From positions 9,831 to 73,830 of the IMG/VR virus record IMGVR_UViG_3300048442_000818: 64,000 nucleotides of DNA; one strand, written 5' to 3'. Each line of letters starts with the position of its first letter. The stretch's first letter is position 1. The notes beneath the pieces are model-generated. The model made no database searches, was not told the DNA's origin, and worked only from the letters and a program-made list of their open reading frames with translations. Source of the DNA: a virus. This document shows positions 15,192-51,467 of the stretch, one piece after another. Made by a program: the position numbers and the translations under genes.

Positions 15192-15221
15192 CTACCTACC
15201 TTTGCAAAGGAAGTAATTATC

Positions 15222-15962
15222 ATGAGTATGTTTAATAATCTAACCAATGAAGGTCTCGAAGAAACTCAAGACCGCCTTGGTGGTTTTGCTCCACTGGAAA
15301 CTGGTATTTACACCGGTGAAATTAAAGCATTGTACGGTGGTAAATCAGCCGGTGGTGCTACCAGTCTTACAGTCATTGTTGATTTTGAGGGTCGTGAGTA
15401 CCGGGAAACCCTGTATGTCACTAACCGTAAGGGAGAAAACTTCTTCCTGAATAAAGACGACAATACCAAAAAAGTACCTTTACCGGGCTTCACTGTTGCA
15501 GATGACATTTGTTTGATTGCAACTGGTGAGCCACTTGCGAACCAGGAACCAGAAGAGAAAGTAATCAAGGTATTCGATTTCGATGCCAAAAAGGAACTGC
15601 CTACCAATGTTCCAATGATTACTGCTGCTATCGGTCAAAAGATCTCTCTGGGTATCGTCAAGCAAACCGTTAATAAGAACGAAAAGCAAGGCGATGAATG
15701 GGTACCTACTGCTGAAACTCGTGACGAAAATGTCATTGAGAAGGTATTCCATCCTGAGCTAAAACTGACTGTTGCAGAAGCACGTAATGGTCAGGAAGAA
15801 GCTAAGTTCTGGGATGCCTGGATCCAGAAGAACGAAGGTCAGACCCGAGACAAGCGTAAGCTTAAAGGTGATCAAGGTGGTGTAACCGGTGCTCCTAAAG
15901 CCGGTGGTTCAGCCCCAGCATCATCCGGTCAACCACGTAAAAGCCTGTTTGGTGATAAGTAA
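15222..15962 (+). CDS. Single-stranded DNA-binding protein / late transcription activator (N4 gp45-like)
   Basis: D-LGG, YRETLYVT, LPGF motifs; C-terminal RKSLFG tail; synteny. Confidence 0.85.
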   Translation: MSMFNNLTNEGLEETQDRLGGFAPLETGIYTGEIKALYGGKSAGGATSLTVIVDFEGREYRETLYVTNRKGENFFLNKDDNTKKVPLPGFTVADDICLIATGEPLANQEPEEKVIKVFDFDAKKELPTNVPMITAAIGQKISLGIVKQTVNKNEKQGDEWVPTAETRDENVIEKVFHPELKLTVAEARNGQEEAKFWDAWIQKNEGQTRDKRKLKGDQGGVTGAPKAGGSAPASSGQPRKSLFGDK

Positions 15963-16012
15963 GTTTTAGGGGGTGTATTACACCCCCAACTCTCACCTAA
16001 ACAGGATGAGAT

Positions 16013-16834
16013 ATGTGGACAATCGAATTACCAATCCGAGTACCAATATCCAAAAAGAAGTTTTTCCTAATCAATTTGAATATGTACCGTAATGCTCACT
16101 TCCAAACACTGAACAAAGCTAAAAAGGTGTTTGCTGAACAGGTATCTCCGTTATTAAAAGGAATACCACACATGAGCGGTTGTACCATGGAATTTGTTCT
16201 ATATCCTGGTTCCCATCGTCTATGTGATGTGAGTAATATATGTTCAGTCGTGGATAAGTTTTTCTGCGATACGTTGGTAACTTGTGGTCATTTACCTGAT
16301 GACAACTACAATTACCTAACTGATATACGGTACAGGTTTGGAAAGGTGGATAAAATGAATCCTCGGGTTGAAGTCACTATTTCACCAGTGGGGGAAACCT
16401 CACCCATTAATCAGAATCAAAAGGAACAAGACATGCAAATCATCCTCGTCCAAGCCGAAGTAGAACAGGCTATCAAAGATTACATCAGTGAACGTCTCAC
16501 TCTCAGTGATGGTACTGAAATCCAAATCGATCTGTCCGCTACTCGTGGTGCAGATGGTATTAAAGCTACCATCGATTTGGTTGAAGGCCCCTCTCCTGTG
16601 GTAGAGAAAGACAAAGGTGTAAGTACCGATCAACCACAGAAAGCAGAAGCACAGGTTAAAACTGAAGAAGTAAAGTCTGAAGAGCCAGAAGCAGTTGAAG
16701 CCCCTGCTACCAAAGAACCAGAGCCAGATGCTGTTGAAGCTGTTGAAGCTAGTGAAGGCAAAGAAGAAGATAAAGAGGAAGAGGTTAAACCAAAAAGCCT
16801 ATTCTCTAATCTGAGTAAGCCTAAAAATAACTAG
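16013..16834 (+). CDS. RusA-like Holliday junction resolvase fused in-frame to an acidic-tailed domain (internal start at 16433)
   Basis: DVSN----DKF--D-L---G-L-DD and PRVEV RusA motifs; second SD+ATG at 16433. Confidence 0.7.
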   Translation: MWTIELPIRVPISKKKFFLINLNMYRNAHFQTLNKAKKVFAEQVSPLLKGIPHMSGCTMEFVLYPGSHRLCDVSNICSVVDKFFCDTLVTCGHLPDDNYNYLTDIRYRFGKVDKMNPRVEVTISPVGETSPINQNQKEQDMQIILVQAEVEQAIKDYISERLTLSDGTEIQIDLSATRGADGIKATIDLVEGPSPVVEKDKGVSTDQPQKAEAQVKTEEVKSEEPEAVEAPATKEPEPDAVEAVEASEGKEEDKEEEVKPKSLFSNLSKPKNN

Positions 16835-17168: not shown

Positions 17169-20100
17169 TTAGTCCATCAGACTATACCAGGGGTTCAGTT
17201 CCCAACTGTTCCAACCCATTTCAGGACCAATTGAGTAACCAAGACTACCATCCATAGCTTGAGTGAAGATGTTATCATTTACTGGTAAACCAACACTGCT
17301 GGGTGCAGGTAGAGTTGATGCTACTAAGAAATGTAGAGGATTGTTTCTAAGAGTACTTAAGGCAATCTTAGCAATACGGATCTTGTAGTTGTAAAACCAC
17401 AGTAGACCCATATTCTCCATATACCCTCTCCAACGTCCCGGTAAGCGATCATAGTTCGCAAACTCGGTAGTTACCCTACCCAAAGCATCAGCACTACTCA
17501 TTTTCTTACGTTGAGTTAAATCATCGTAGAGTACTGCTTTAGCTACAAAGTCACTGTACTGTACAGACTTTTGAAGAGCCTGGAACAGTGGAGTGTCTTT
17601 CATGATTAAACCATACCGGGCAGCCGTTCTGAGTTTGGGGGGCAGCTTATCAATCTGCTTACTGAAGTAGCTGTACAGATTACCAGTAGTCAGTTCCAGA
17701 TCTTCAGAAGACATACCGATATCCGCAATAGTGCTGAATTCCCCTGCCTGGATCAAAGGCCAGATACTCAGACGCTGATTAGAGTCAGTGATGGATCGGA
17801 TCTCAGCACGCAGTTTACGCTCCCGTACAAAGTCTTGGCCTACCGCCCTGAGTTCAGCTTCCAAATCAATCTGACGTAAGCGGTTCTTCACATAAGCATT
17901 GATCTCTACCAGCTTAGCTGGATACCCACGTTTGATATCCCGTACCGGTACACCTCTACTCACCAACTGGTAAGTGGTTGAAATGAAGTTATACACCGGT
18001 ACTACCACCGATCTAACAATAATGTTAGTACGAATATCAGACATTATATTTTGTGTGAATTGTTCACCTTTCACTAGAGTTTTATAAGCATCTGGTCCCA
18101 TTAAACCAACAAAGAAGTTTCTCCAAGCTTCATTAGTTAATGGATCTCTGTTGTTGCTATTGGTCCAGAAATCACCAACAGAAGGGTTACGATAACCTAC
18201 TGCATCTTCTAGCATATCTTTACGAACCCAGAATTCATCCCCAAATTTGCGATGAATATAATCTCTAGTATCGTCAGAGAATAAATTCACAGCATCTCTT
18301 TGTACTGGGCTAAGATTAGAACCAAAAAGGTTCACATACTCGTTGATTTTATCACGGCTAATTTTCATATCAGCCGTATACATATCATGGAGTCTATCAA
18401 TAGAAGTCTCGTTGAAAATTTGAGACATCTTTTCTTCAACCTGACGACCTCGCCAAACACCTAACATCCGGCTTAGGTCTTGTGATTCAGGTTCCAAACG
18501 GGCTTTCTGTGCTGGATCCACTGACTGCTCGTAAGCAAAGATTTGGCCTCTCTCATCGAATACAGGCATCAGGTTCTCAACATCACCCTGTTCTTGAGAC
18601 AGTCTGCGAGTGATTCGGGTCACATCAGCACGCCCAAAGATACGACCTGCCACCAGATCAGAGGTGAGACCTGTATGGGGATCAACTCCTGAAGCCGTAC
18701 GGTTGATGTTCTGAATAAAGCCTTGAGCATAAGCAGTACGACCAGAAATAGGAGTAAAGTAGTAGCTCTTGCTTGAGCGTCGGTTATCCACATTACTACC
18801 GTTATACGGACCCATGTTCACATAACCACGGATCCGCATATTGGACTCCTGGGCATTCTCTTCAATACGTAGAGATGCACCAGGGCTTTGCTCAGCCGGT
18901 ATATGGCCTTTGTAGTGGTTCACCAGGGCCTTACCCTTGTTTGCCTTACGAAGCTCTGTTCTACGCTGTCCTTGAAGGTATCCCAGCACGAAGTTGAGAC
19001 CATTGCTCTCATCCTGAACCAAGGAGGCCATAGCCTGCTTATCCTGGGTGGATAAACCATCCACAGCGTACAGAGTGATCAGTTGATCAATAGACCGTTG
19101 TATGGAGCTGTCAGGTGCCTTCCAGCCTGCTTGTCTGGATTCACCAAATAGGTTTGAGATCGCATAAGCATTACGAAGCAGACTGACCCCTGTTTTACCG
19201 GTGTTCATGAAAGTGGCAAGTTGCTTCATCTTTCTTTGGTAAATAGGCCAGTGAGCAGTATCACTCTGCTGAATGAGTCCTTCCAGATCGTTGATCAAAG
19301 CATCCAGTGAAGTTTGGCTCTGGAATAGATCCACGATATCTTGCGCAGGCATTGTTTCCATCAGGGCTGCCAGATCCGTTTTACCCATAGAACGGTACAT
19401 TGAGGACCATTCTTCCTGAGACAGCTTTCGACTGAATTTGTTATGCAGCACTCGTGGAATTTCATCTCTAAAGTTCTGACGTAATTGCTGCACTGCTGCC
19501 CTGACAGTTTTGATCATGTCATAGACTTGAGCATTGCCTTCGGTACGATCTACAAGGTTGTTCACCAAATCATAGAACGGCTTCCAGATCCGACCACGGT
19601 TCATTAATCCCATCAGTTCTTGGGATACCATGTCGGCTCGTTCTTCAGAGGCAATGGACGAAGCCAGCTTTAGGAAGTTACCTGCGAGTTTAGTTGGAAG
19701 ACTCTGGGATTCCTGTCCTTTGGTTCCAAGTTTGTAACCGGTATCTGCAAGGGTTTGCATACCGTTTACCATCCAATCGTTTACAGCGTCATATTTATTA
19801 CCAATCTTATCTGTTACCTCGCGGATAGTGGTCTGCTCATCCAAAGCAGCTTTGGTAATCTGATTCATCAAATTATCCATAGCCGCTTTGACATTGGCAG
19901 CATCACGCTGACCTGACATACGATTTGACAGTGAATCTGATGCAGTGACCAATAAGTTATCCAAAGCAGCATCCATAGTTTTTTGATCTGACTTAACAGA
20001 TTTTGGAACCTGCATATTTGCTAAGATATCTCTAAACTCTTGGTTCACAGTGGATAGTGCAATGAACACAGGTAACAGAGTAGTGCGCCCATATGCATCT

Positions 20101-23100
20101 GTTTGACGATTTACTCGACCCAAAATAGTGTTGTATTTTTCTTGCGCATAATAGCGATCAGCATCAGGGTTACGAGAATTCTCTGGCATAAAGCTATCAA
20201 CACTCAGGTTTTTAGTTACATGAGTGTATAGCTCCTGCATTTGAGCCAAAGCGTTAGGATCCAATTTAGCTTCAGTAGCCAGAGTAGCTACGATTGTTTT
20301 GAATGTGGTGGCTTCATTGATATCCATATTGAAGTGAGCACTTACTGCATCATTCAGAGCATCAATGGCTACTTGGCCTGATTCTGAAAGGAGGCGGTTC
20401 TGCTGCACTTCGCGTTCGGTATCGGGATACTCATCTAAGAGATCAACAATCTTGGTTTGAAGAGCATTACGGATATCTCGTAAGCGGGTATTATTCCCAT
20501 AGGTTGCATGGAATAACGTACCTTCCTGGAATACAGAAGATAGATTTGGCTGAGTACGAATAATGATACCGGTGTTGAATTGTAGATTACTCAACACATC
20601 ATCAGCGTGTTTAGGAGCGTGCTTACGACCCCAAACTAATTTCTTGATTTCTTGCCACAGATCTTTAGCAAGTTGAACTAACTTGTTCGTTTTTGTTTTC
20701 TTCAGTCGATTAGTGATCTGTTCGTTAGTAAGACCCCATGCCATAAACTCGTTAAGGGCTTTAGCCTGTGAGGCAGCAGGATCCATATTCAGATCATTCT
20801 GAGCACTCTCAATAGCAGCTCTAGCATTATCAAATGCCATGTACATTTCGTTAGGTAAACCACTTTCCAGATCCATGGAAAGAAAATCATTGAGCATGAT
20901 CTCCATTCGCTCAATAGCCCTTCTTGCTTCTGGATCCACTTTTTCACCACGATAATATGAAAGCAGTGTTTCATAGGTAGAAGCGTGAACCATTTCGTGG
21001 ACCAAGGTTTCAGTGGTTGGGTTGATCAGATAAATCACCCGTTCCGCTACTGAAATCACACCGTGAGCCGTAGCATCTCCCGTGTTAATTGAACTCAAGC
21101 CAGTTTCACGTTGGTATGCAGCAATTTGCTCAGGTGTACCAGCAATGATTTTGTAATCTTTGGTTCCCAGATTACGAATGATTTGAGCATAGATATCTCT
21201 TTGTGGTTGGGTCATGTTGACCAACCGACCGAGATTTTTCAGGGCTGTCCAGCTAATTACACGTACACCTGAAGCTTTATGTTCACGGCCCACTTTCTGA
21301 ATATCTTCAGACATGCCATCAGCTACAGGAGCTTCTTCTGTAGCTTGCTGTTTGCCTGAAATTTTCTCTTGATAACGAGCATTCAATTCATCAGCAATTT
21401 GTTCAGGTGTCATCTGTGCATCAAGAGTTACAGTTCCATTCACATAAGGTGAGGCAGCACCAGCCATATGATCAATAGAATGAAGAACATCACTCATTAC
21501 CTGACGACGAATAGAGACACTATCTTCCGCTTGCTGAAGAAATTTACCTTTCCTATCCAACATATCCAAGATAGCTTGAGAAGTAGCTACTTCTTCTTCT
21601 GGATCCAGATAAGGAAACAAGGCACGGGTAAAATCTCTATGCATCGGTGTATCTTTCACCTGCATATCATTCTTTAACATATCTTCGATTAGATCTTTTG
21701 ATTTCATAAATTGTTTATAGGAATCATTGACTGCCTTAAACGGATTACCATTGATCCAGGAGTCATACACAGCCTTATTGGCTTTTTCACTGTATTCAGT
21801 GATTTTATCCAAAGGCATGTTGATACCATCAAAGATATCAAGGGTATTGTTCATTTCAGTATCCAGAGAAGTTCTCTGGATCATGTTAGCGTCACCCATA
21901 CCAATGGTTAGGAACGGAATACCCGCAACACCAGCATTGGCTGGGGCATAAGCGTAAGCATCCGTTCTCATGGTTCCATCAAGAGCACGACTGAATGCTG
22001 GACCACCTTCAAGCATCTGAGTCTTAGCAATTAGAAATACTTGACCTTGTGTTTGAACCAAAGGAGATACTTTGAATATTTCTTTGTAGATTGCAGTGAA
22101 GTCTTTACGAGAAAGGAAATCACCAGGACGGTAGGTAGGATCATTTTTCTTACGATCCTCTAACCGTTCATTAATCAATCTACGGAACAGATACTCCAAA
22201 ACAATAGACTGTGATTGGGTTGCTTGACGGATTTTATCAACAGACCTCATAAGAGGAGCACCAACTGTATCTTCAATACCAAACCGCAGAGGTCTAACAA
22301 AACCTTCAAGCATGTTTTGTTTGATACTTTGGATCTGTTCTGGTGTAAAAGTGAACTCTACTGGATCCGCAGACTGACGTGTGCGATCTGAAGGTTCTAA
22401 GAAGTATTCACCACTTCTCTGGTTATAGCGTATTTTATTGGCTAACAGGGTATTTAAAGCATCAACAAACTGACGACCCTGTTTTTCAGGATTTGGTTCA
22501 TTAGGGAATAGAGCTTCACCCAAGGTAATTTTAGGATAAGCTTCTCTTGCCTGGGCAAATTGAGACATTTTACTGTAAATGTCTTTCACCATTTGGGATG
22601 TAAGATTACCAGCAATACCTGAGATTGAAGAACCATACACCAAAATGGTAAGTGGGTTCTTGGCAATACCACGGTCAAGCTCAAAGGATCCTGGCTCACC
22701 TAATTCAACATCACCGTTGTACTTAACACCCGGTAATGTGACATTCATCAATGTCATCAATGCCTTAACGTTACCTAGTAGCCCATCAGATTTCTTATTA
22801 CGACCCAGTACATTGATAAGGGTACGTAGATGCTTATCTGAATTGATCGTAGCTGTTTTGTACAAATCAACAGGATCTCTTTGGCTGAGTTCAGCCATAG
22901 TTTGGCGAGTGCCGATAGAGACACCACCTTTAGAAATATTCTGGATCCACTCAGGAGTAAACCGGCCTGGGGTCATTAACATCATAGCGTTGATTGGGCC
23001 ATCGGTTACACCATCCCCCTCAAGATATATTGAGGTACGGAAAGATTCTCTCTCACCTAACGGAGTTTGTGTTAACCGTGCGTATTCCATAAGAGCATTC

Positions 23101-26100
23101 AAAGCTACAGGCGTAACATCAATACCCGCAGAATCAAGATGACCCTTCAGAATATAAGCATCCAGAGGATTTACCTCAGTAGTTATTAATGAGTTGGTAT
23201 CAGTGCCACTTACCCAATCGTTGATCAGATCCAGAGCAGGGACCAAAGGACCAGTAAGTAAGTTTTGTACTTGCTCAACTGTATCTTCTAAAAGTTGATT
23301 ATGAACTTTAATATCTAATGCTTGACCAATAGAAAGTAAGAAATGATTGTAAATAGTACTGTTTTCATTAGACAAATCAACAGTACTCCACGTAGGTAGA
23401 ATAGCCTCACGAACTGCTTTATCTGATTGAGGGTTGTAAGCACCCAGCATCTGCATACGCCCAACACGGGAAATATTATAAGCGTACCGAATTGGCATCT
23501 CAGAAACCGATACACCTTCTGTTTCAGCACGGTTAACCATACGATCAACCGTATTAAATAGGTGATTGTATGCAGAAGTAATAGTGCGATTTTTACCTTC
23601 AATAGATTTAGCATGGTTTATATTAAGGGTTTGATTATCACCCGCTGATTCACCAAGCAGAGTTAACATACCCTCTCTACCGAAAGCAGAGTATAGATTT
23701 ACCATTGGAATATTCAGATAAAAAGGTACTTTTTGTTTGTTCTCAATCGCTTCTTTTTGTTTTATAGTGTTAGCTACTTCTGGGTTATTCATCTGACGCT
23801 GGGCAACAGGAATTTCCTGATCACCAATGTAGAACACTTCTTCTGGACTAATTAGAACAGCATCATCAATAGCAGTTGGGTAAGCATGAATTGGATTACC
23901 TTCCATTGGTGATACAAGATACCGATTAGGTGTTTTATCTGAATCCAGACCAAAGGATTTCAGGTCAACGGTAGTGACACCCATCATACCCGTATCAATA
24001 AAAGCCCTGATCATTTCAGCAGCTACTGCTTCAGGAATACCCTCAGAATAAGCAATGTCCGCATCAGCAGTAGCCGTTACACCCCAGTATTCTTTGATCT
24101 TGTTAGCAAGAGATCGCTTCACCTGCTCAAGACTCATACCCTCATTGAGAAGGCGTATGACCTCATAAGGTACGATTTCAGCGTCCACACCAGTGATAGC
24201 AGAGATGTCTGAATCATCCATTGGAGTGTGGTACTGGTTAGATGTCAGTAACCACTGAATAGCTGCTAAAGCAGCAGTCTCTAACAATTCTGGGTTGTAT
24301 TGGTAACCTTCTGGTGTTTCATCAACAATATTAAGTGCTTTACCTCTAGCCCATCTTTGAATATCAGCATCAGTTTCTAATACATCACGGATCGTTCTTT
24401 TATCTTTATTTGAAGACCATGAATAACGACTATTTAAGAAACGATCTAAATTAGCAGACATAGCTGACATAAGACCACCGACAGATTGAACACTTTTAAT
24501 CTGTGCAGCAGTAAGATCATTAGTTTCACTCTTTATCAGGTATTCACTTGCTTTTGGATCATTGCGTAACAAAGTTTGATATTCAGATGCGATCTCAGGA
24601 GTTAAAGTGTATTTAGGGGTATTACCCATAAATTCAATCAAACTCCCGGATGAAGATAAAGCATCTTGAACCAAGAGGATGGGGGATCCTTCTTGACCGA
24701 TTAATCGAGTAGGTGCTTCTTCTGTGTTCGGTAATCTGAACACTTTTTTGAAGAAGTTTTCACCGCGAGTAAGTAGATTTGGGTATAGGGAATCCAAACC
24801 TGTAGTGGGGGTATCTACCGGTTCAGCCTCAGCAGAAACAGGTTCTGGGGTGGATTCCTCTATAGTGGTATCCACTTCTTCCTGGGGCTGTGTTTGAACA
24901 GGCTCTGGATCAGGTTGAGTTTCAGTAACTGGCTCAGGTTCTGGCTGTGCTTCTTGTTCTTGCACCTCTGGTTCAGGTTCAGCCGGTTTATTGATCTCAG
25001 CAAACGCCTCCGCAGGGGTAAGCTTACGGATATCAGCATCTGTTAAGCCACGCTCTCTTAATTGAGCACGCATAGCTTGCGTGATCATTACGGGTACGCT
25101 GGCTGTAGTGGTTTTTTGTGTTGGCGTATCTTTTGTGATTTGCTGTACCTGATCGGGGTTAAATACTACAACCTCCTCGTAACGGAACTCAGGGTCTGCA
25201 TAAAGTAAGCCGTCATACCCTTCCGTTATTAAGGCATCACGTTGTTCTGGTGTGATGCCTGTAATCACTATGGGATCATTATCTTTAACCAAATAAGGAT
25301 TTTGAATGTTTACCCGGAAAGTGAGTGTTACTCCCCCTTCTTGCATTCCTTGGGAATATGCAATGTTTTTTGTAGTGTAAAACCCAACGAGAGTACCCGT
25401 GTTGTTTCCTATAAAATGCACAGTAGAAGGTCGTTCACGTTCAGCAATCACTTTAAAATTTTCTGCTTCTACTGCCCTTGTTGTGTGGTAAGTCAACCCT
25501 TTTACTACGCTATCCGGAAAAATGTGATCGTATGCAGAAGTATCAGAAATAATCTCTGATTTTGGTTCAGCTTTTTTTAATTCAGAATTAGAGGTTGACT
25601 TATTTTGTTGATTTTTCGTAAATATTTCACGTAATCTTTCAGCATTAGCAACAGCAGTAGATTTACGACGTTCAAGATCAGATTTTATCTGCTCATACCT
25701 ACTATCATTTTTATCTACACCGGGATTTATATTGAGATTACGTGCATATCTTTCTGCCCTAAGTACTATATATTCTGCAAGATCAAAACGATCATTATTA
25801 ATTGCTGTATTTAGTTGTGCAAAAGTTTCTGGGTTTGAGGGATCAATTACTGGAGCAACTACCGCATCATATAGAGTTTTTTCTATTTCTGGGCTGTTTT
25901 GTCCTGGCGCACGATCACCCCTTATATATATTTGTTCATTCTTTTCAAAATCTAATTGTGCTTCGAGAGTCTCAATACGTAGTTCTGACCCTGACTCAAG
26001 AGTAGATTCTGCCTGTTCTTGCTGTTGTTCTGGCTCTGCTGTTACTTCAGCTTGTCTTTGTCCAGGTACAACACGCTCACCGGAACGGAAAGCATCAACA

Positions 26101-28919
26101 ACTTCTTGTGGTGTGCCTTCTAATGCTGGATCTAAAAATAGGGGTTCAAATTTCTCATTACCAAGCTCTGGGAATGCATCAACTAAACCATTGTAAATAT
26201 TCACAAGAGTTTCTTGCTCAGCTTGTACTGACTTAACCAGTTCTACTGATTTAGCTGATTTCCAGTTAACATACATGCCTTTGCTATCTGCTTTAGGGTT
26301 ATTAGATGACAATAACCACTCACGGGTAACAGGTACCAATGACATATACGGAACAGCTTCAGCATTAGGATTGCCGTTATCAAAGTGTTCATTAGCTGCT
26401 CTAACTTTGTTTTGCATGTGTTGTACAAACAAACCAAAGTCTTCCAGACGAGCACTAGCAATATCAGGACGATTACCACGAACAGCCTCAACAATACCTT
26501 TGGTATGCTGTAAAGCTGATCTGGCATTCTCCCTTCTTGGATCATTACTTGCTACGATCTGACTAGAAACTACGTCTTTAGCGGTTTGCAGACCACTATC
26601 AGCAATTTTCTTCTCAAGCTTTTGACGCTCACGAAGTAAGTCATAACTAACCTGTAATGCTTGACGTTGTGAGTTAGTTAACTCTAAACGACCCTCTTCA
26701 GCGTGCTTAAGAATACCTTCAATCACTTCAGGGTTGCCCTGGTCAGGCATTAGTTCAGCCATGGCAACGGCTGTACGGACACGGCGTTGACCTTCTTCCG
26801 TGTTGACGTTTCTTTCCGTAACAGGCTTCAGTGATTTAGTTACAGCACCACTTTTAGCGGATGCATCTAAAGCACGCATAGCTCTCATTACAGAAGCATT
26901 CTTTTCCAGATCCCAGATTAACCGGTCATATCGAAGCAATGTATCTCTGGCTTCGTGATCCTCAGGGATTTTTTCCATGATAGCCGGTTCAGCTTCTTTC
27001 AGGTCCAGAAGTGGCTGCATTAGCTCCTGTAGCACTGCTGCGGCTTGGATCTGTTCTGGGCCTTCGGGTAGGCGGGCTACTTCACGAGCTACTTCCTGAA
27101 TTGCTTCAACACGGTTTGTGGCCGTGGCTGTCACTTCACGAAGATTTTCTGGCACAGATTCAGGGTCAAACTGCATAGACTGAACCAAGGAAGAAACGTA
27201 AGCATTGCCTTCTGCACGCTCTTCTGGAGTGGCTTCTACGGTGTTGATCGTATCAGACAGGTCTTGTGCTGTTTCAGCCGTCTGTTGTGCTGTAGCGGCT
27301 GCCTGCTCTCTCATGGCTTCATCACCAACAGGTGATTGCTGCTGTACCTGCTGACGAATTTTGTCACCTCTTTCAACGATAGCGTTGAAAGCAGGCTTAC
27401 CTGCTTCAATAGCAGAAGAGATAGCCTTACGAGTTATTTTGTAAGTAGGTTCAGCAACAGTTCTAGTTGCTTGGGCAGCAGCACCAGGAGATCTAATAGC
27501 ACCGGCGGAAGTTACACCGTAAGCAGCACCTTCACCGACTTGACGGCCCACATCAGCAGATAATGACTGCTCAGGGTCAACATATTCCTGACTAGCTAAA
27601 TTCTCGGCCACACCGCTGACAGCGCCCTGTAATGCTTCTTCTCCAGGTTCTCTAAGTAGAACATCACCTGCTAACTGTCGAGCGCCAACAGCACGGAAAG
27701 GTGCTTCACCGATTCGTGAGATTGTACCTAAGCCTGCTGCAATAGGAGCTGTTCGGGTAGCAGCATAAAGACCAGCTTCATTAGCCAAATGTGTTTTGGC
27801 TTGTTCCTGGGCTGTTGCTTCATCCATACCCTGGTCAAGAAAGTTTTGCTTCAGTTCACGATAAGGTTGTGATGTCTGTTCCAGTTGTTCTACCGGAGTA
27901 GACATAATCTCGGTATTGACCTGTTGGTAGACACCACCACCTTCCATAGCACCAATAGCAGCAGGCCAAGCAGAAGCACTGGCTAAATCACGAGTACGAT
28001 CTGCTACCCTGGCAGCCGACATAGTGTCAGTTGCCCTGTCCAATTCAGCAGCTAAACGGGTAGAAACACTTCCTGCCACACCACCTGTGACAGCCCGACC
28101 AATGGCTTTAAGACCTTTGGTAATGACACCACCACCAACAATGGAACCAACACCCTCAGATGTACCTGAAAGCAACATGGTTGGGTCCGACACAGCATTG
28201 GCAATGGCATCAACAGCATCACTACCGACACGTTTAAGACCAGATACTAGTTCACCATCACCGGCTGCTAAATTAGCTTGATACTCAGCTTCATTATCTC
28301 TTTCAGCTAAATTTTGACGAGCTTCGTAATTACGACGAGCAGCACTTAACTGTTCTGATTGAGTGCCTTGTACCCATTCATTAGCGCTATTCATACCGTC
28401 AGTAATAGAAGCACCTAATTCAGCATCCAGTAAACCACCGCCCACTGCGGCAATACCACCAATGCTATTGCCCACACCAGCGGCTATCCCAGAAGCAGTG
28501 TCCCACAGTGCTTCACCAGTTGTACGGTCATAACCGGCTCTATCACGGCTTACCTCGGAAGAAGCAGCAGAAAACTGTCTAATCAATTCTGGTGCATCAG
28601 CCCCGTACTTCAAATATAACGAGGGGGTATCTAGGGTTCTGAGATCTTCCTCTAATTCACCCATGCTGGCAGCACCCATTTGGTTACCACGGCCAGCAGC
28701 AGCTTGATACATATCGGGGTTTATTTGGGGTAGTACACTACTGATTTGATCTTGCTTTTGGGCTGAAGCCTGGGTAATAGAATTCTTCTTTTCTCCTAGA
28801 GCACGTTGGAAAGCATTGTTCATAATCCCCCGTTCATCCACAGATAGTGGAGTTGCTCCTTGAGTTGGGGTAGTAGAAGACGTAACTGCTTGATCCAAGA
28901 GGGTCTGAAAATCTGCCAT
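17169..28919 (-). CDS. Virion-encapsidated RNA polymerase (N4 gp50-like), 3916 aa, with inserted ART-like domain
   Basis: SRVGR, motif A EGDGVTDGP, motif B RGIAKNPLT--YG, motif C IFDG; no Cys seen after ATG 28919. Confidence 0.95.
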   Translation of the reverse strand: MADFQTLLDQAVTSSTTPTQGATPLSVDERGIMNNAFQRALGEKKNSITQASAQKQDQISSVLPQINPDMYQAAAGRGNQMGAASMGELEEDLRTLDTPSLYLKYGADAPELIRQFSAASSEVSRDRAGYDRTTGEALWDTASGIAAGVGNSIGGIAAVGGGLLDAELGASITDGMNSANEWVQGTQSEQLSAARRNYEARQNLAERDNEAEYQANLAAGDGELVSGLKRVGSDAVDAIANAVSDPTMLLSGTSEGVGSIVGGGVITKGLKAIGRAVTGGVAGSVSTRLAAELDRATDTMSAARVADRTRDLASASAWPAAIGAMEGGGVYQQVNTEIMSTPVEQLEQTSQPYRELKQNFLDQGMDEATAQEQAKTHLANEAGLYAATRTAPIAAGLGTISRIGEAPFRAVGARQLAGDVLLREPGEEALQGAVSGVAENLASQEYVDPEQSLSADVGRQVGEGAAYGVTSAGAIRSPGAAAQATRTVAEPTYKITRKAISSAIEAGKPAFNAIVERGDKIRQQVQQQSPVGDEAMREQAAATAQQTAETAQDLSDTINTVEATPEERAEGNAYVSSLVQSMQFDPESVPENLREVTATATNRVEAIQEVAREVARLPEGPEQIQAAAVLQELMQPLLDLKEAEPAIMEKIPEDHEARDTLLRYDRLIWDLEKNASVMRAMRALDASAKSGAVTKSLKPVTERNVNTEEGQRRVRTAVAMAELMPDQGNPEVIEGILKHAEEGRLELTNSQRQALQVSYDLLRERQKLEKKIADSGLQTAKDVVSSQIVASNDPRRENARSALQHTKGIVEAVRGNRPDIASARLEDFGLFVQHMQNKVRAANEHFDNGNPNAEAVPYMSLVPVTREWLLSSNNPKADSKGMYVNWKSAKSVELVKSVQAEQETLVNIYNGLVDAFPELGNEKFEPLFLDPALEGTPQEVVDAFRSGERVVPGQRQAEVTAEPEQQQEQAESTLESGSELRIETLEAQLDFEKNEQIYIRGDRAPGQNSPEIEKTLYDAVVAPVIDPSNPETFAQLNTAINNDRFDLAEYIVLRAERYARNLNINPGVDKNDSRYEQIKSDLERRKSTAVANAERLREIFTKNQQNKSTSNSELKKAEPKSEIISDTSAYDHIFPDSVVKGLTYHTTRAVEAENFKVIAERERPSTVHFIGNNTGTLVGFYTTKNIAYSQGMQEGGVTLTFRVNIQNPYLVKDNDPIVITGITPEQRDALITEGYDGLLYADPEFRYEEVVVFNPDQVQQITKDTPTQKTTTASVPVMITQAMRAQLRERGLTDADIRKLTPAEAFAEINKPAEPEPEVQEQEAQPEPEPVTETQPDPEPVQTQPQEEVDTTIEESTPEPVSAEAEPVDTPTTGLDSLYPNLLTRGENFFKKVFRLPNTEEAPTRLIGQEGSPILLVQDALSSSGSLIEFMGNTPKYTLTPEIASEYQTLLRNDPKASEYLIKSETNDLTAAQIKSVQSVGGLMSAMSANLDRFLNSRYSWSSNKDKRTIRDVLETDADIQRWARGKALNIVDETPEGYQYNPELLETAALAAIQWLLTSNQYHTPMDDSDISAITGVDAEIVPYEVIRLLNEGMSLEQVKRSLANKIKEYWGVTATADADIAYSEGIPEAVAAEMIRAFIDTGMMGVTTVDLKSFGLDSDKTPNRYLVSPMEGNPIHAYPTAIDDAVLISPEEVFYIGDQEIPVAQRQMNNPEVANTIKQKEAIENKQKVPFYLNIPMVNLYSAFGREGMLTLLGESAGDNQTLNINHAKSIEGKNRTITSAYNHLFNTVDRMVNRAETEGVSVSEMPIRYAYNISRVGRMQMLGAYNPQSDKAVREAILPTWSTVDLSNENSTIYNHFLLSIGQALDIKVHNQLLEDTVEQVQNLLTGPLVPALDLINDWVSGTDTNSLITTEVNPLDAYILKGHLDSAGIDVTPVALNALMEYARLTQTPLGERESFRTSIYLEGDGVTDGPINAMMLMTPGRFTPEWIQNISKGGVSIGTRQTMAELSQRDPVDLYKTATINSDKHLRTLINVLGRNKKSDGLLGNVKALMTLMNVTLPGVKYNGDVELGEPGSFELDRGIAKNPLTILVYGSSISGIAGNLTSQMVKDIYSKMSQFAQAREAYPKITLGEALFPNEPNPEKQGRQFVDALNTLLANKIRYNQRSGEYFLEPSDRTRQSADPVEFTFTPEQIQSIKQNMLEGFVRPLRFGIEDTVGAPLMRSVDKIRQATQSQSIVLEYLFRRLINERLEDRKKNDPTYRPGDFLSRKDFTAIYKEIFKVSPLVQTQGQVFLIAKTQMLEGGPAFSRALDGTMRTDAYAYAPANAGVAGIPFLTIGMGDANMIQRTSLDTEMNNTLDIFDGINMPLDKITEYSEKANKAVYDSWINGNPFKAVNDSYKQFMKSKDLIEDMLKNDMQVKDTPMHRDFTRALFPYLDPEEEVATSQAILDMLDRKGKFLQQAEDSVSIRRQVMSDVLHSIDHMAGAASPYVNGTVTLDAQMTPEQIADELNARYQEKISGKQQATEEAPVADGMSEDIQKVGREHKASGVRVISWTALKNLGRLVNMTQPQRDIYAQIIRNLGTKDYKIIAGTPEQIAAYQRETGLSSINTGDATAHGVISVAERVIYLINPTTETLVHEMVHASTYETLLSYYRGEKVDPEARRAIERMEIMLNDFLSMDLESGLPNEMYMAFDNARAAIESAQNDLNMDPAASQAKALNEFMAWGLTNEQITNRLKKTKTNKLVQLAKDLWQEIKKLVWGRKHAPKHADDVLSNLQFNTGIIIRTQPNLSSVFQEGTLFHATYGNNTRLRDIRNALQTKIVDLLDEYPDTEREVQQNRLLSESGQVAIDALNDAVSAHFNMDINEATTFKTIVATLATEAKLDPNALAQMQELYTHVTKNLSVDSFMPENSRNPDADRYYAQEKYNTILGRVNRQTDAYGRTTLLPVFIALSTVNQEFRDILANMQVPKSVKSDQKTMDAALDNLLVTASDSLSNRMSGQRDAANVKAAMDNLMNQITKAALDEQTTIREVTDKIGNKYDAVNDWMVNGMQTLADTGYKLGTKGQESQSLPTKLAGNFLKLASSIASEERADMVSQELMGLMNRGRIWKPFYDLVNNLVDRTEGNAQVYDMIKTVRAAVQQLRQNFRDEIPRVLHNKFSRKLSQEEWSSMYRSMGKTDLAALMETMPAQDIVDLFQSQTSLDALINDLEGLIQQSDTAHWPIYQRKMKQLATFMNTGKTGVSLLRNAYAISNLFGESRQAGWKAPDSSIQRSIDQLITLYAVDGLSTQDKQAMASLVQDESNGLNFVLGYLQGQRRTELRKANKGKALVNHYKGHIPAEQSPGASLRIEENAQESNMRIRGYVNMGPYNGSNVDNRRSSKSYYFTPISGRTAYAQGFIQNINRTASGVDPHTGLTSDLVAGRIFGRADVTRITRRLSQEQGDVENLMPVFDERGQIFAYEQSVDPAQKARLEPESQDLSRMLGVWRGRQVEEKMSQIFNETSIDRLHDMYTADMKISRDKINEYVNLFGSNLSPVQRDAVNLFSDDTRDYIHRKFGDEFWVRKDMLEDAVGYRNPSVGDFWTNSNNRDPLTNEAWRNFFVGLMGPDAYKTLVKGEQFTQNIMSDIRTNIIVRSVVVPVYNFISTTYQLVSRGVPVRDIKRGYPAKLVEINAYVKNRLRQIDLEAELRAVGQDFVRERKLRAEIRSITDSNQRLSIWPLIQAGEFSTIADIGMSSEDLELTTGNLYSYFSKQIDKLPPKLRTAARYGLIMKDTPLFQALQKSVQYSDFVAKAVLYDDLTQRKKMSSADALGRVTTEFANYDRLPGRWRGYMENMGLLWFYNYKIRIAKIALSTLRNNPLHFLVASTLPAPSSVGLPVNDNIFTQAMDGSLGYSIGPEMGWNSWELNPWYSLMD

Positions 28920-28973
28920 GAGAACGGTACCCAATGTGAATATATGTTTGGAAGTAACTCTACCATAGATTTG

Positions 28974-29004
28974 AAAAAAAGAAGCCCCACCAATGCAGGG
29001 CTTC
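28974..29004 (-). terminator. Terminator upstream of vRNAP gene
   Basis: GAAGCCC...GGGCTTC followed by T7 on minus strand. Confidence 0.7.
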
Positions 29005-29032
29005 AAGTATTACAAGGTAGAGTTTACATGCC

Positions 29033-50125: not shown

Positions 50126-50155
50126 CGCTCAGACCACCCAAGGGTGGTCTTCGCG
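50126..50155 (-). promoter_or_regulatory. Hairpin with tandem GA mismatch and CTTG loop
   Basis: Minus strand CGC-GA-AGACCACC-CTTG-GGTGGTCT-GA-GCG. Confidence 0.6.
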
Positions 50156-50164
50156 TTTTTGTCA

Positions 50165-50941
50165 TTATACTCTACTTAACCTGATACTCAGAATAGTACA
50201 GTATTGAACCATTGTGCCAAGCTGATCTTTCAACAGTTTTTGGTCTTCTTCAGGTAGCTTATTAATAGTGTCACCTACCAAAAAAGCCTCTAATTTACCG
50301 ATCTTCTGATTAAGCTCAGCGTATTCTTTACGCAAACGATCTGCATAAGTGGCCCCGGTACTGTCAAAAGCCTCATAGCTTTGCTCAAAGACATCTTGGG
50401 GGGACCAGCTCACGTAACCGCCAAACCCATCTACGTTCTTGGCTCCACCATCGGCGTACATCACCAAATAACCAGGATCATCCCCATTTTCATCAGAAGG
50501 CAGTTCCCAACTACGGAGATCGTTATACGTCTGACGACTCATCGGTACCGCATAAACTACCTTAGTACCGATATAGGTCTTTGGATCCCCAAACTTAAAC
50601 AGGAGGTCATCCATGCTTAGTGGGGTAGACTGTTCTACCAGACTGGCTTTGTTCCGAAGGGCATACCCTTCCAATCCCCAGATCTTTTCACGGGCATTCT
50701 TACGAGCCACGTCCCGGCCCACATCTGCATCAAAATTGGCAGGGCTGGCACAGGCACTCTCACCCGTCACGGTGTACCCATTCTTCAAGGTAAGCAGACA
50801 GATCGTCTGACAGGTACCAGGGAAGACGTAGTAATCCTCAGTTACAATCTGATCATCCACGTCGCTAGGCTTGATCCGAGGAGCAGTAAGACCCTTGCTC
50901 TGGATCATCTCTTCAATCGTATTTTCCTGTTCAGTACTCAT
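50165..50941 (-). CDS. Three-domain protein: N4 gp49/Sf6 gp66 domain + YIGTK/SWSP domain + crAss001_48-like helical domain; candidate anti-defence sponge
   Basis: APRI...TIC-LTL-NG-TV-GESAC-SP-NFD--G---A---A--KIW-LEGY; YIGTK...GYLV-Y...SWSP--VFE; R---E--EL--K--KL--F...Q---M--Y--IL--R; ATG 50941 with SD GAGAGG. Confidence 0.75.
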   Translation of the reverse strand: MSTEQENTIEEMIQSKGLTAPRIKPSDVDDQIVTEDYYVFPGTCQTICLLTLKNGYTVTGESACASPANFDADVGRDVARKNAREKIWGLEGYALRNKASLVEQSTPLSMDDLLFKFGDPKTYIGTKVVYAVPMSRQTYNDLRSWELPSDENGDDPGYLVMYADGGAKNVDGFGGYVSWSPQDVFEQSYEAFDSTGATYADRLRKEYAELNQKIGKLEAFLVGDTINKLPEEDQKLLKDQLGTMVQYCTILSIRLSRV

Positions 50942-51110
50942 GGTGTAACCTCTCTGTTGTGTTGTCGTCGAATGACACGTAGACTTTAGACCACATTTAG
51001 CCACCAAACAATACTTCACCACTAGGGTAAGAGGTAGACGGAGCCTATTGTCTTGTGCCAAGACCATCAGGAGTGTTGGCTATCTACTAATAACAAACAA
51101 CACCTAAGAC

Positions 51111-51139
51111 TTGAACCAAGGGAAAAACGGGGCTAATCT
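51111..51139 (+). promoter_or_regulatory. Sigma70-like promoter
   Basis: TTGAAC-N17-TAATCT. Confidence 0.4.
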
Positions 51140-51145
51140 CGTATG

Positions 51146-51285
51146 TGTTAGGCGTGAGAAGCGGCAACAGGCCCCAGCAAAGAGGTGGGCTGAATAACCC
51201 TTTGCAGGTAGAGCTGCCCTGCTAGCACAGCACCTCCAGGCAGTGATCTACTACTAAGCCCTCTACCCAAATAGAGGGCTTTTTT
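51146..51285 (+). ncRNA. Candidate ~140-nt structured small RNA
   Basis: GC-rich stretch with no convincing ORF between a sigma70-like promoter and a terminator; internal stems. Confidence 0.35.
51256..51285 (+). terminator. Rho-independent terminator
   Basis: AAGCCCTCTA-CCCAAA-TAGAGGGCTT plus T-tract. Confidence 0.8.
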
Positions 51286-51305
51286 ATGCCCCATATAAAG
51301 TAGGT

Positions 51306-51398
51306 ACTCAGAATTCCCCTTCACGAATAAATCTCCTCCTCGCAGGGACTAGCGTCCCTGCTCAGTCGTCGCTTTATTTGCTCAGGGGAATTCTTCGC
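51306..51398 (-). other. Long strand-asymmetric hairpin with multiple tandem GA/GA mismatches
   Basis: Nested arms AGAATTCCCCT/AGGGGAATTCT, AATAAA/TTTATT, GCAGGGAC/GTCCCTGC separated by TC/TC (GA/GA on minus strand). Confidence 0.7.
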
Positions 51399-51467
51399 GT
51401 TTTGATAAAAAAGAGTTGTAATGTGTGATTCTTGATGTAAGATGGAATCTCTAACCAACTAGGAGAT

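What the first reader, a model, noticed from the sequence alone, without database searches (positions are those of the whole stretch)
50165..50941. Three-domain fusion that looks like a multivalent immune-signal sponge/eraser
Seen: the 258-aa protein is three small phage domains in tandem: an N4 gp49/Sf6 gp66-type domain (aa ~15-100), a YIGTK...SWSP-VFE domain (~120-190) and a helical crAss001_48/Y16Q-like domain (~198-258). Knowledge (from memory, needs confirmation): the gp49/66 family corresponds to the anti-CBASS sponge Acb4, the YIGTK/SWSP domain often occurs fused to DUF2829 (Tad2), and sponge domains tend to fuse with each other. Inference: one polypeptide neutralising several nucleotide signals (cGAMP, gcADPR or others); domains 2 and 3 may have separate specificities.
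Basis: partly seen in the sequence, partly recalled or inferred. Interest (0 to 1): 0.8.

Follow-up and report, generated by a model that had tools for sequence, protein, structure and literature searches.

The report
Acb4–unnamed domain–Sequestin phage sponge fusion
An N4-like phage gene joins two published "sponge" domains that soak up bacterial alarm nucleotides (Acb4 and Sequestin) through a small, highly conserved middle domain that no database names; the sponge fusion is already known, so only the middle domain's job is open.

Summary
The ORF at 50165-50941 (-) encodes a 258-aa protein with three domains. Residues 23-98 match Pfam PF13876, the Acb4 family. Residues 198-257 match PF21825, the Sequestin family. 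Residues 121-190 are a compact beta-rich domain (D2) with no Pfam, NCBIfam, PADLOC or PDB match.

Acb4-Sequestin fusions are already published. Tal et al. 2025 described them, and gp59 of Pseudomonas phage Ab09 was shown to bind gcADPR and cyclic dinucleotides. Here the four Sequestin ligand residues are kept, and the Acb4 fold matches PDB 9E4W.

D2 is the open part:
- It defines at least 1,389 protein clusters.
- It sits next to Tad2, Sequestin, Acb4 or Acb2/Tad1 domains in most of its top 150 relatives.
- It forms the front half of phage N4 gp49.

D2 is a relative of the N-terminal domain of "RyR Tad" (Pectobacterium phage CB1 gp68). That domain forms a strand-swapped dimer in a crystal and had no anti-Thoeris I activity on its own. 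I therefore read D2 as most likely an architectural dimerisation module. A third binding function is not excluded.

The scan has reported the same architecture in other phage genomes. Verdict: a new variant of a known kind, of moderate interest.

The parts
50165..50941 (-). Complete CDS, 258 aa plus stop (P0001): a three-domain anti-signalling protein
   Evidence: Translation without stops. Homologues of 243-272 aa with the same architecture.
50949..50954 (-). Ribosome-binding site GAGAGG, 7 nt upstream of the ATG at 50941
   Evidence: Read directly from the sequence.
50648..50875 (-). Domain 1, aa 23-98: Acb4-family sponge domain (PF13876)
   Evidence: Pfam E 4.6e-27. PDB 9E4W by sequence, E 1e-3. 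PDB 9E4W by fold: probability 1.00, TM 0.66-0.78 normalised to the target, rmsd 1.1-1.7 A over 65-71 residues in most chains. 45% identical to the Acb4 half of Ab09 gp59, E 4e-27.
50372..50581 (-). Domain 2 (D2), aa 121-190: unnamed, highly conserved small beta-barrel-like domain (YIGTK...PM...GYLV.Y.DG...Y.SWSP..F..Y)
   Evidence: No Pfam, NCBIfam, PADLOC or PDB sequence match. 1,389 clusters in the representative library. AF2 model with pLDDT 94.5. Only weak SH3/Tudor-like fold matches, best Z 4.5. Homologous to the N-terminal domain of CB1 gp68 'RyR Tad'.
50171..50350 (-). Domain 3, aa 198-257: Sequestin-family helical hairpin (PF21825)
   Evidence: Pfam E 8.4e-18. Two long helices in the AF2 model. 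R202, E206, Q240 and R254 are invariant or nearly so in 48 Sequestin domains, with the spacing of SequestinA R8/E12/Q47/R61. The same four residues align in Ab09 gp59.
50131..50150 (.). GC-rich hairpin between this gene and the next gene downstream (228 aa, in the small-terminase position)
   Evidence: Terminator-like on the + strand only. Its role for the minus-strand gene was not established.

Best explanation
The gene encodes a modular counter-defence protein of an N4-like (Schitoviridae) phage.

The N-terminal Acb4 domain should assemble into a tetramer and sequester CBASS-type cyclic dinucleotides. The C-terminal Sequestin domain should pair as an antiparallel dimer and sequester the type I Thoeris signal 3'cADPR (1''-3' gcADPR). 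One protein would therefore blunt two signalling defences, as shown experimentally for the two-domain homologue Ab09 gp59.

The middle domain D2 belongs to a very widespread phage domain family that is attached to nearly every sponge family. Its only studied (and divergent) relative forms a beta1-strand-swapped dimer. I therefore infer that D2 most likely acts as an architectural dimerisation or clamping module. It would help organise the oligomer of the neighbouring sponge domain rather than act as a proven third sponge.

Shown here: domain identities, conservation of the Sequestin ligand residues, the Acb4 fold, and D2's distribution and homology. Inferred: ligand identities, oligomeric state, and D2's role.
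For: Domain 1 is Acb4-like: Pfam PF13876 at 94.8 bits, PDB 9E4W by sequence and by fold, and 45% identity to Ab09 gp59's Acb4 half. Acb4 is a tetrameric cyclic-dinucleotide sponge. N4-type Acb4 binds c-di-AMP at 111 nM.

Domain 3 is Sequestin-like: PF21825 at 64.5 bits. This family was shown to sequester 3'cADPR, with R8/E12/Q47/R61 lining the modelled pocket; alanine substitution of E12, Q47 or R61 abolished anti-defence activity, while R8A did not. The matching R202/E206/Q240/R254 are invariant or nearly so and align with Ab09 gp59.

Ab09 gp59 (Acb4-Sequestin, 147 aa) binds gcADPR tightly and 3'3'-cGAMP and 2'3'-cAA more weakly, is a tetramer, and inhibits type I Thoeris and partly CBASS II-A.

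D2:
- A compact five-strand, two-helix domain in the AF2 model, pLDDT 94.5.
- Among its top 150 relatives, fused to Sequestin (47), Tad2 (43), Acb4 (38) and the Acb2/Tad1 hairpin (2).
- Almost always sits directly N-terminal to Tad2 or Sequestin, with linkers of about 5 residues.
- Homologous to CB1 gp68 residues 5-64: BLASTP E 9e-7, profile E 9e-9. Foldseek also matches the Yersinia phage TG1 RyR protein, E 2.8e-5, TM 0.70 normalised to the query.
- In the gp68 crystal structure this domain is a strand-swapped dimer forming a five-stranded sheet, both domains contribute to dimerisation, and the isolated N-domain had no anti-Thoeris I activity.
Against: No binding, oligomer or phenotype data exist for this protein.

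The Acb4 guanine-pocket residues of SPO1 are not kept (K36 becomes C44, E49 becomes T57). Y57 becomes A65 and T70 becomes V78 (mapped). Ligand preference therefore probably differs from SPO1 Acb4.

The scaffold reading of D2 rests on a divergent relative. That relative lacks D2's own near-invariant polar motif R136, Y139, N140, R143, W145, P148, E151 and N169. The relative was tested alone against only one defence system.

[quoted passage not shown] It is more conserved than its partner domains, at 60% against 32-40% pairwise identity, although that sample is biased by how it was chosen. Both points are odd for a pure scaffold.

The gene heads the late-strand terminase block rather than the published anti-signalling hotspot, so its expression timing is unknown.
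Confidence: 0.55

Rival explanations
1. D2 is a third, autonomous counter-defence module. It would be either a sponge for a signal not covered by Acb4 or Sequestin (for example His-ADPR, N7-cADPR, cyclic mononucleotides or cyclic oligoadenylates) or a binder of a host immune protein. The protein would then be trivalent.
For: The fusion logic that led to the discovery of Sequestin applies equally to D2. D2 was invisible to that Pfam-based screen because it has no Pfam model. D2 exists as a stand-alone ORF and with many unrelated tails. It has a near-invariant set of aromatic and charged residues (K127, R136, Y139, N140, R143, W145, E151, Y162, D164, N169, Y176, W179) of the kind that line nucleotide pockets. 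This set is kept in phages of Proteobacteria and Clostridium, which fits a universal small ligand better than a host protein.
Against: No similarity to any known sponge by profile or fold. The domain is acidic, with mean net charge -3.2 and -6 in this copy, whereas most sponges have basic pockets. The related gp68 N-domain had no activity alone, and the ligand in that crystal sat in the C-terminal domain. The polar motif decays in Bacteroidota-phage and gp68 versions.
Confidence: 0.3
2. The sponge domains are real, but D2 is only an inert linker or solubility spacer, carried along because an N4 gp48-like gene fused with an N4 gp49-like gene. It would make no functional contribution.
For: In phage N4 and Bp4 the Acb4 gene and the D2-Tad2 gene are adjacent. 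A simple read-through fusion plus a swap of the C-terminal module would give this architecture.
Against: An inert spacer would not keep about 25 near-invariant positions across 150 clusters, nor fold with pLDDT 94.5. It would also not persist as a separate ORF.
Confidence: 0.05
3. The protein is not a counter-defence factor in this phage. It would instead have a late morphogenetic or packaging-related role, given its place directly upstream of the terminase genes.
For: The gene is on the late strand, immediately before the 228-aa gene in the small-terminase position and the large terminase gene. The same placement is seen in Rhizobium phage RHph_X3_15.
Against: Both flanking domains belong to families with experimentally shown sponge function, and their ligand residues are conserved. 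The same domains in other N4-like phages sit in the replication-side anti-signalling hotspot. Sponge inserts in structural operons are seen elsewhere, for example in the Clostridium phage CP51 head operon.
Confidence: 0.05

Closest known systems
Ab09 gp59, the Acb4-Sequestin fusion of Pseudomonas phage vB_PaeP_C2-10_Ab09 (preprint 10.64898/2026.06.04.730250); also the YH6 fusion in Tal et al., 10.1101/2025.07.12.664507
   Same: N4-like phage. Acb4 domain at the N-terminus (45% identical, E 4e-27) and Sequestin domain at the C-terminus with the same R/E/Q/R ligand residues. Expected dual action against Thoeris I and CBASS.
   Different: gp59 is 147 aa with the two domains directly abutting. The window protein carries an extra ~100 residues (aa 99-197) containing D2. 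gp59 lies in the primase-vRNAP hotspot, whereas this gene lies upstream of the terminase genes.
Phage N4 gp48 (Acb4) plus gp49 (D2 + Tad2-like), and the Bp4 orf33/orf32 pair
   Same: Same Acb4 and D2 modules in the same order. D2 of gp49 matches the D2 profile at E 2.5e-34.
   Different: In N4 these are two separate genes. The module after D2 is Tad2 (PF11195), not Sequestin.
RyR Tad (Pectobacterium phage vB_PatP_CB1 gp68), N-terminal domain
   Same: Homologous small beta domain placed directly N-terminal to a helical gcADPR sponge domain. Shared K..A.PM, GYLV.Y, Y.SWSP..VF motifs. Five-strand topology as in the AF2 model.
   Different: Only 37% identity over 68 residues. gp68 lacks D2's R..YN..R.W.LP.DE helix-loop motif and the 10-residue GG..N loop. 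Its partner is a RyR Repeat12-like domain, which none of D2's top 150 relatives carry.
SPO1 Acb4 (PDB 9E4W)
   Same: Same fold. The adenine-pocket residues F62 and I66 correspond to F70 and V74, and the G-R-D turn is kept (G75, R76, D77).
   Different: About 23% identity. The guanine-pocket residues K36 and E49 are replaced by C44 and T57, so a different cyclic-dinucleotide preference is likely. Gram-negative-phage Acb4s bind 3'3'-cAA.
SequestinA/B and T4 Y16Q (PF21825)
   Same: A 60-residue helical hairpin with four conserved ligand-contact residues at matching spacing.
   Different: Sequestin is usually a stand-alone 60-80 aa protein. Here it is the C-terminal module of a 258-aa fusion.

Membership tests
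Acb4 (PF13876, Phage_gp49_66) | Matches the family profile above the curated cut-off | tested here: met
   94.8 bits against a cut-off of 27, aa 23-98 covering profile positions 1-81 of 82.
Acb4 (PF13876, Phage_gp49_66) | dsRBD-like alpha-beta-beta-beta-alpha protomer fold as in PDB 9E4W | tested here: met
   Foldseek of the full-length AF2 model against 9E4W chains: probability 1.00, TM 0.66-0.78 normalised to the target, rmsd 1.1-1.7 A over 65-71 residues in most chains.
Acb4 (PF13876, Phage_gp49_66) | Ligand-contact residues of the SPO1 Acb4 3'3'-cGAMP pocket | tested here: inconclusive
   Using the ungapped alignment and the residues listed: F62 maps to F70, I66 to V74, F48 to Y56, and G-R-D is kept. 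K36 maps to C44, E49 to T57, Y57 to A65 and T70 to V78. The family is known to vary in specificity.
Acb4 (PF13876, Phage_gp49_66) | Homotetramer with inter-protomer pockets that binds cyclic dinucleotides | not testable with these tools
Sequestin (PF21825, crAss001_48) | Matches the family profile above the curated cut-off | tested here: met
   64.5 bits against a cut-off of 24.8, aa 198-257 covering profile positions 2-61 of 61.
Sequestin (PF21825, crAss001_48) | Conserved 3'cADPR-contact residues (SequestinA R8, E12, Q47, R61) | tested here: met
   R202, E206, Q240 and R254 are 98-100% conserved in 48 Sequestin domains. Their spacing matches (R-x3-E; Q to R is 14 residues). They align with the same residues in the gcADPR-binding Ab09 gp59. 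Caveat: SequestinA itself was not aligned.
Sequestin (PF21825, crAss001_48) | Antiparallel helical-hairpin homodimer that sequesters 3'cADPR | not testable with these tools
   The monomer model shows two long helices, 199-222 and 231-257. The dimer and ligand could not be modelled.
Tad2 (PF11195, DUF2829), considered for domain 2 | Sequence or profile similarity to the Tad2 family | tested here: not met
   No PF11195 hit for D2 even at E<=10. hhalign of the D2 profile against a Tad2 profile gave probability 0.4%. Tad2 sits next to D2, not over it, in Bp4 orf32 and N4 gp49.
Tad2 (PF11195, DUF2829), considered for domain 2 | Tad2 fold (PDB 8SME/8WJE) | tested here: inconclusive
   Only chance-level Foldseek rows to SPO1 Tad2, E 0.9-2.6 and TM 0.31-0.35.
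RyR Tad N-terminal domain family (CB1 gp68 residues 1-86), for domain 2 | Detectable homology to the gp68 N-terminal domain | tested here: met
   BLASTP E 9e-7, 37% identity over 68 residues. D2 profile E 9e-9 on gp68 residues 5-64. Intermediate Clostridium and Bacteroidota phage members bridge the two. Foldseek hit to the TG1 homologue, E 2.8e-5.
RyR Tad N-terminal domain family (CB1 gp68 residues 1-86), for domain 2 | beta1 strand-swapped homodimer forming a five-stranded sheet | not testable with these tools
   The AF2 monomer has five strands in the expected order. The gp68 structure is not in the held PDB copy.
Lockin / TadIV-1 / Tad1 / Acb2, considered for domain 2 | Sequence or fold similarity to these sponge families | tested here: inconclusive
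   No PDB sequence hit, and none of them appeared in the fold searches. TadIV-1 is all-helical. Lockin was reported absent from INPHARED genomes, whereas D2 is in 132 of them. Two to three of D2's top 150 relatives carry an Acb2/Tad1 hairpin as a neighbouring domain, not as D2 itself.

The most novel reading that the evidence does not exclude
D2 is an undescribed, autonomous counter-defence domain, present in over a thousand phage protein clusters and in model phage N4 (gp49). It would bind its own immune signal or host immune protein through the near-invariant R136/Y139/N140/R143/W145/E151 surface. That would make this protein a true trivalent inhibitor and add a new family to the known phage sponges.
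Probability: 0.3. Interest if true: 0.75.

Novelty: new variant of a known kind. Interest (0 to 1): 0.5.

Why it matters
Phage sponge proteins decide whether CBASS, Thoeris and related nucleotide-signalling defences work. They also trigger guard systems such as Panoptes and PanDA.

The Acb4-Sequestin part of this protein adds nothing new. The middle domain is different. It is one of the most widespread sponge-associated modules without a name or a tested function, and it is present in the model phage N4. The Pfam-based fusion screen that discovered Sequestin could not have seen it, because it has no Pfam model.

If D2 only clamps dimers, that would explain how phages bolt different sponges onto a common chassis. 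If it binds something itself, it is a new anti-defence family. Both outcomes can be tested with simple biochemistry.

Tried and rejected

Searches on D2 that found nothing useful:
- PADLOC and NCBIfam scans gave nothing.
- PDB sequence search with D2 alone gave only chance hits. With the A2 profile it hit only the flanking Acb4 and Tad2 parts.
- Foldseek against PDB with the D2 model gave no match at E<=1e-3.
- VIA-align wide search gave a best Z of 4.5 (DUF1653, CarD/Mfd, Tudor, SH3), below the level that distinguishes kinship from a common small-barrel arrangement.
- hhalign of D2 against Tad2, Acb4 and Sequestin profiles gave probabilities below 1%.
- A relaxed Pfam scan (E<=5) of 150 D2-containing proteins showed no family recurring on D2.
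- The ESM Atlas returned only unnamed viral clusters.
- The word-indexed homologue search returned only 5 proteins and no informative names.

Other dead ends:
- The PDB copy does not hold the gp68 or Sequestin structures.
- Literature searches for a described function of this domain found only the gp68 N-domain remark.
- The search for related loci in IMG/VR with the single protein returned 7 loci, too few for statistics.

Ideas rejected:
- The 300-aa start at 51067: there is no support from homologue lengths, and the RBS precedes 50941.
- An 'eraser' activity: no enzymatic domain was found.
- A Tad2 or second D2 elsewhere in the 73.8-kb phage record: none found.
Full report
**Observation**

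The minus-strand ORF at 50165..50941 translates to 258 residues (P0001). A GAGAGG ribosome-binding site lies 7 nt upstream of the ATG at 50941. An in-frame ATG at 51067 would give 300 aa. However, the closest full-length homologue (Rhizobium phage RHph_X3_15, 252 aa, 45% identity) aligns from residue 6, so the 258-aa reading stands.

Pfam gives two confident domains:
- PF13876 (Phage_gp49_66) at aa 23-98, E 4.6e-27.
- PF21825 (crAss001_48) at aa 198-257, E 8.4e-18.

Nothing in Pfam, NCBIfam or PADLOC covers aa ~100-197. PHROGs has only 'unknown function' families for that stretch.

**Context**

The window is part of a 73.8-kb IMG/VR virus record judged complete. It has a 3,945-aa virion RNA polymerase and a large terminase 72-77% identical to those of N4-like phages of Erwinia, Pseudomonas and Rhizobium. 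It is therefore a Schitoviridae phage without a close isolated relative.

The gene heads the late-strand block, directly before a 228-aa gene in the small-terminase position and the large terminase gene. The same placement occurs in RHph_X3_15. It is not in the primase-to-vRNAP 'anti-signalling hotspot' described for N4-like phages. In this phage that hotspot holds only a Sak4-like ATPase and two unassigned ORFs. The record carries no Tad2 and no second copy of the middle domain.

**Domain 1 is Acb4**

PF13876 is the family founded by SPO1 Acb4, a tetrameric sponge for 3'3'-cGAMP and related CBASS signals (10.1101/2024.12.30.630793). P0001 hits PDB 9E4W by sequence (E 1e-3). The full-length AF2 model (pLDDT 94.7) hits 9E4W by fold, with probability 1.00, TM 0.66-0.78 normalised to the target, and rmsd 1.1-1.7 A in most chains.

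I mapped the published contact residues through the ungapped alignment:
- Kept: the adenine pocket (F62 maps to F70, I66 to V74), the stacking aromatic (F48 to Y56) and the G-R-D turn.
- Not kept: the guanine-reading K36 and E49 (C44 and T57 here), and Y57 and T70 (A65 and V78 here).

This matches the reported variation in the family. Acb4s from phages of Gram-negative hosts also bind 3'3'-cAA. N4 Acb4 binds c-di-AMP at 111 nM and thereby triggers PanDA and Panoptes.

**Domain 3 is Sequestin**

Tal et al. (10.1101/2025.07.12.664507) found PF21825 because it is the unknown family most often fused to Tad2 (60 cases) and Acb4 (91 cases). They showed that it sequesters 3'cADPR and cancels type I Thoeris.

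Their model places R8, E12, Q47 and R61 of SequestinA in the ligand pocket. Alanine substitution of E12, Q47 or R61 abolished anti-defence activity, while R8A did not. In P0001, R202, E206, Q240 and R254 have the same spacing. They are 98-100% conserved among 48 Sequestin domains of related proteins.

**The fusion of these two domains is already characterised**

Ab09 gp59 (147 aa: Acb4 1-83, Sequestin 84-147) binds 1''-3' gcADPR tightly. It binds 3'3'-cGAMP more weakly and also binds 2'3'-cAA. It is a tetramer, inhibits type I Thoeris strongly and CBASS II-A partly, and triggers Panoptes (10.64898/2026.06.04.730250).

I fetched gp59. Its Acb4 half is 45% identical to domain 1 (E 4e-27). Its Sequestin half aligns with domain 3 with the four key residues matched. 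The window protein differs by about 100 extra residues between the two halves.

**Domain 2 (D2): what it is**

A full HMMER search with aa 108-197 found 1,389 representative clusters at E<=1e-3 and 664 at E<=1e-10. tblastn found D2 in 132 isolated phage genomes, infecting Escherichia, Vibrio, Klebsiella, Pseudomonas, Clostridium, Bacteroides and others.

Among the top 150 relatives, Pfam finds Sequestin in 47, Tad2 in 43, Acb4 in 38 and the Acb2/Tad1 hairpin in 2. No Pfam family recurs on D2 itself, even at E<=5.

My own domain HMMs give these architectures:

| Architecture | Count (of 150) |
|---|---|
| D2-Tad2 | 38 |
| Acb4-D2-Sequestin | 24 |
| D2-Sequestin | 23 |
| D2 with unassigned tails | 34 |
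| D2 alone | 10 |
| Acb4-D2 | 8 |
| D2-Acb4 | 6 |

D2 usually sits directly N-terminal to Tad2 or Sequestin. The unassigned tails are diverse and mostly singletons.

Phage N4 gp48 is Acb4, and gp49 is D2 (aa 9-75) plus Tad2 (aa 83-159). The same holds for Bp4 orf33 and orf32. The window gene therefore looks like a gp48/gp49-type pair fused into one frame, with Sequestin in place of Tad2.

About 25 positions are at least 90% conserved. They include K127, P133, M134, R136, Y139, N140, R143, W145, P148, E151, G157, Y162, D164, N169, Y176, S178, W179, S180, P181, F185 and Y189.

Within the same proteins, D2 is more conserved (about 60% pairwise identity) than Acb4 (40%), Sequestin (32%) or Tad2 (33%). 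This sample was chosen by D2 similarity, so the contrast is inflated.

**D2: fold and kin**

AF2 with 150 sequences gives a confident model (pLDDT 94.5, pTM 0.84). It has five short strands and two helices.

- Foldseek against PDB finds nothing at E<=1e-3.
- The Foldseek-independent search gives only SH3/Tudor/CarD-like small-barrel rows, best Z 4.5 for DUF1653. That is below the level that shows kinship.
- Profile-profile comparison with Tad2, Acb4 and Sequestin is negative.

Against predicted viral structures, besides obvious family members, the model hit a 'ryanodine receptor domain' protein of Yersinia phage TG1 (E 2.8e-5, TM 0.70 normalised to the query). That led to the RyR Tad protein of the 2026 preprint, Pectobacterium phage CB1 gp68.

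According to the preprint:
- The C-terminal RyR-like domain of gp68 is a gcADPR sponge.
- In the crystal, that N-domain forms a domain-swapped dimer. Its beta1 strand inserts into the partner to complete a five-stranded sheet.
- Both domains contribute to dimerisation.
- The isolated N-domain (1-86) had no anti-Thoeris I activity.

I fetched gp68 and tested the link. BLASTP of D2 against gp68 gives E 9e-7, with 37% identity over 68 residues. The D2 profile matches gp68 residues 5-64 at E 9e-9.

An alignment that includes Clostridium, Parabacteroides and Bacteroides phage members shows a graded series. All share the core motifs YI.TK...PM, GY.V.Y.DG and Y.SW.P..F. The helix-loop motif R..YN..R.W.LP.DE and the 10-residue GG..N loop are progressively lost toward gp68. 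D2 and the gp68 N-domain therefore belong to one family, with gp68 at its divergent edge. The gp68 structure is not in the held PDB copy.

**Most likely mechanism**

The protein is a dual sponge. The Acb4 tetramer would take up cyclic dinucleotides, and Sequestin dimers would take up 3'cADPR, as shown for Ab09 gp59.

For D2, the best-anchored reading is an architectural one. A strand-swapping dimer module placed directly before a dimerising helical sponge would lock or orient the assembly.

This reading is not secure, for four reasons:
- The experimental anchor is a divergent relative that lacks D2's own invariant polar surface.
- That relative was tested alone against only one defence system.
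- D2 persists as a stand-alone ORF.
- D2's conservation is unusually high for a scaffold.

Against the third-sponge idea:
- D2 is acidic, with mean net charge -3.2 and -6 in this copy.
- It resembles no known sponge.
- The ligand in the gp68 crystal lies in the other domain.

I put the clamp reading at roughly 0.5-0.6 and an autonomous binding function at about 0.3. 

**Comparison and novelty**

- Acb4: profile and fold criteria are met. The ligand residues are only partly kept.
- Sequestin: profile and ligand residues are met.
- D2: not a member of Tad2, which was tested and not met. It is a member of the unnamed family that includes the gp68 N-domain.

The two-sponge fusion is already known. 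The three-module form and the D2 family proper (N4 gp49 N-terminus) have no described function in the literature I could search.

Earlier follow-ups in this scan reached the same architecture on other phage genomes. I treat that as a repeat, not as evidence.

Verdict: a new variant of a known kind, of moderate interest. The value lies in D2 as a well-defined and easily testable candidate.

Noticed in passing
window 14454-16834 (+): The published N4-like 'anti-signalling hotspot' between the primase (12243-14390) and the virion RNA polymerase (17169-29006) here holds only a Sak4-like ATPase (PF13479) and two ORFs of 246 and 273 aa with no family. It carries no recognisable sponge. In this phage the sponge gene sits at the head of the terminase block instead, as in Rhizobium phage RHph_X3_15.
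   Followed up: partly
window 50942-51467: About 520 nt without a convincing ORF separates the sponge gene from the first plus-strand early-type gene (51468). It contains a strong terminator-like hairpin on the + strand at 51256-51281. A second one at 50131-50150 lies just downstream of the sponge gene, so the gene is bracketed by plus-strand terminator-like hairpins. This may be near the physical genome ends.
   Followed up: no
proteins P0052 (aa 72-196) and P0117 (aa 72-148), relatives: Two D2-containing proteins share a C-terminal module with the motif DYAW.WHCNIAMAAFDAGCPH, which has no Pfam match. By the same fusion logic it could be another sponge-associated domain.
   Followed up: no
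proteins P0082 and P0083: After D2 these proteins begin like Tad2 (G.SFG.AIEALK.GKK) and then run into low-complexity sequence. They look like frameshifted or mis-assembled D2-Tad2 genes in metagenomes, so some 'D2 with unassigned tail' counts are probably artefacts.
   Followed up: no
L014:598-1062 (Clostridium phage vB_CpeS-CP51) and L016:598-996 (Bacteroides phage BF1-TP2): D2-containing genes also sit inside head-morphogenesis or lysis gene blocks in unrelated siphophages. In CP51 the gene lies between the minor head protein and the scaffold protein. In BF1-TP2 it lies after the endolysin. Sponge inserts in late operons may therefore be common.
   Followed up: no
search_dna_similar rows H19, H21, H48, H80: Several GenBank phage records annotate the D2-Tad2 or Acb4 genes as 'anti-CRISPR protein'. 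This was probably inherited from AcrIIA7-like Tad2 annotation and is likely misleading for these genes.
   Followed up: no
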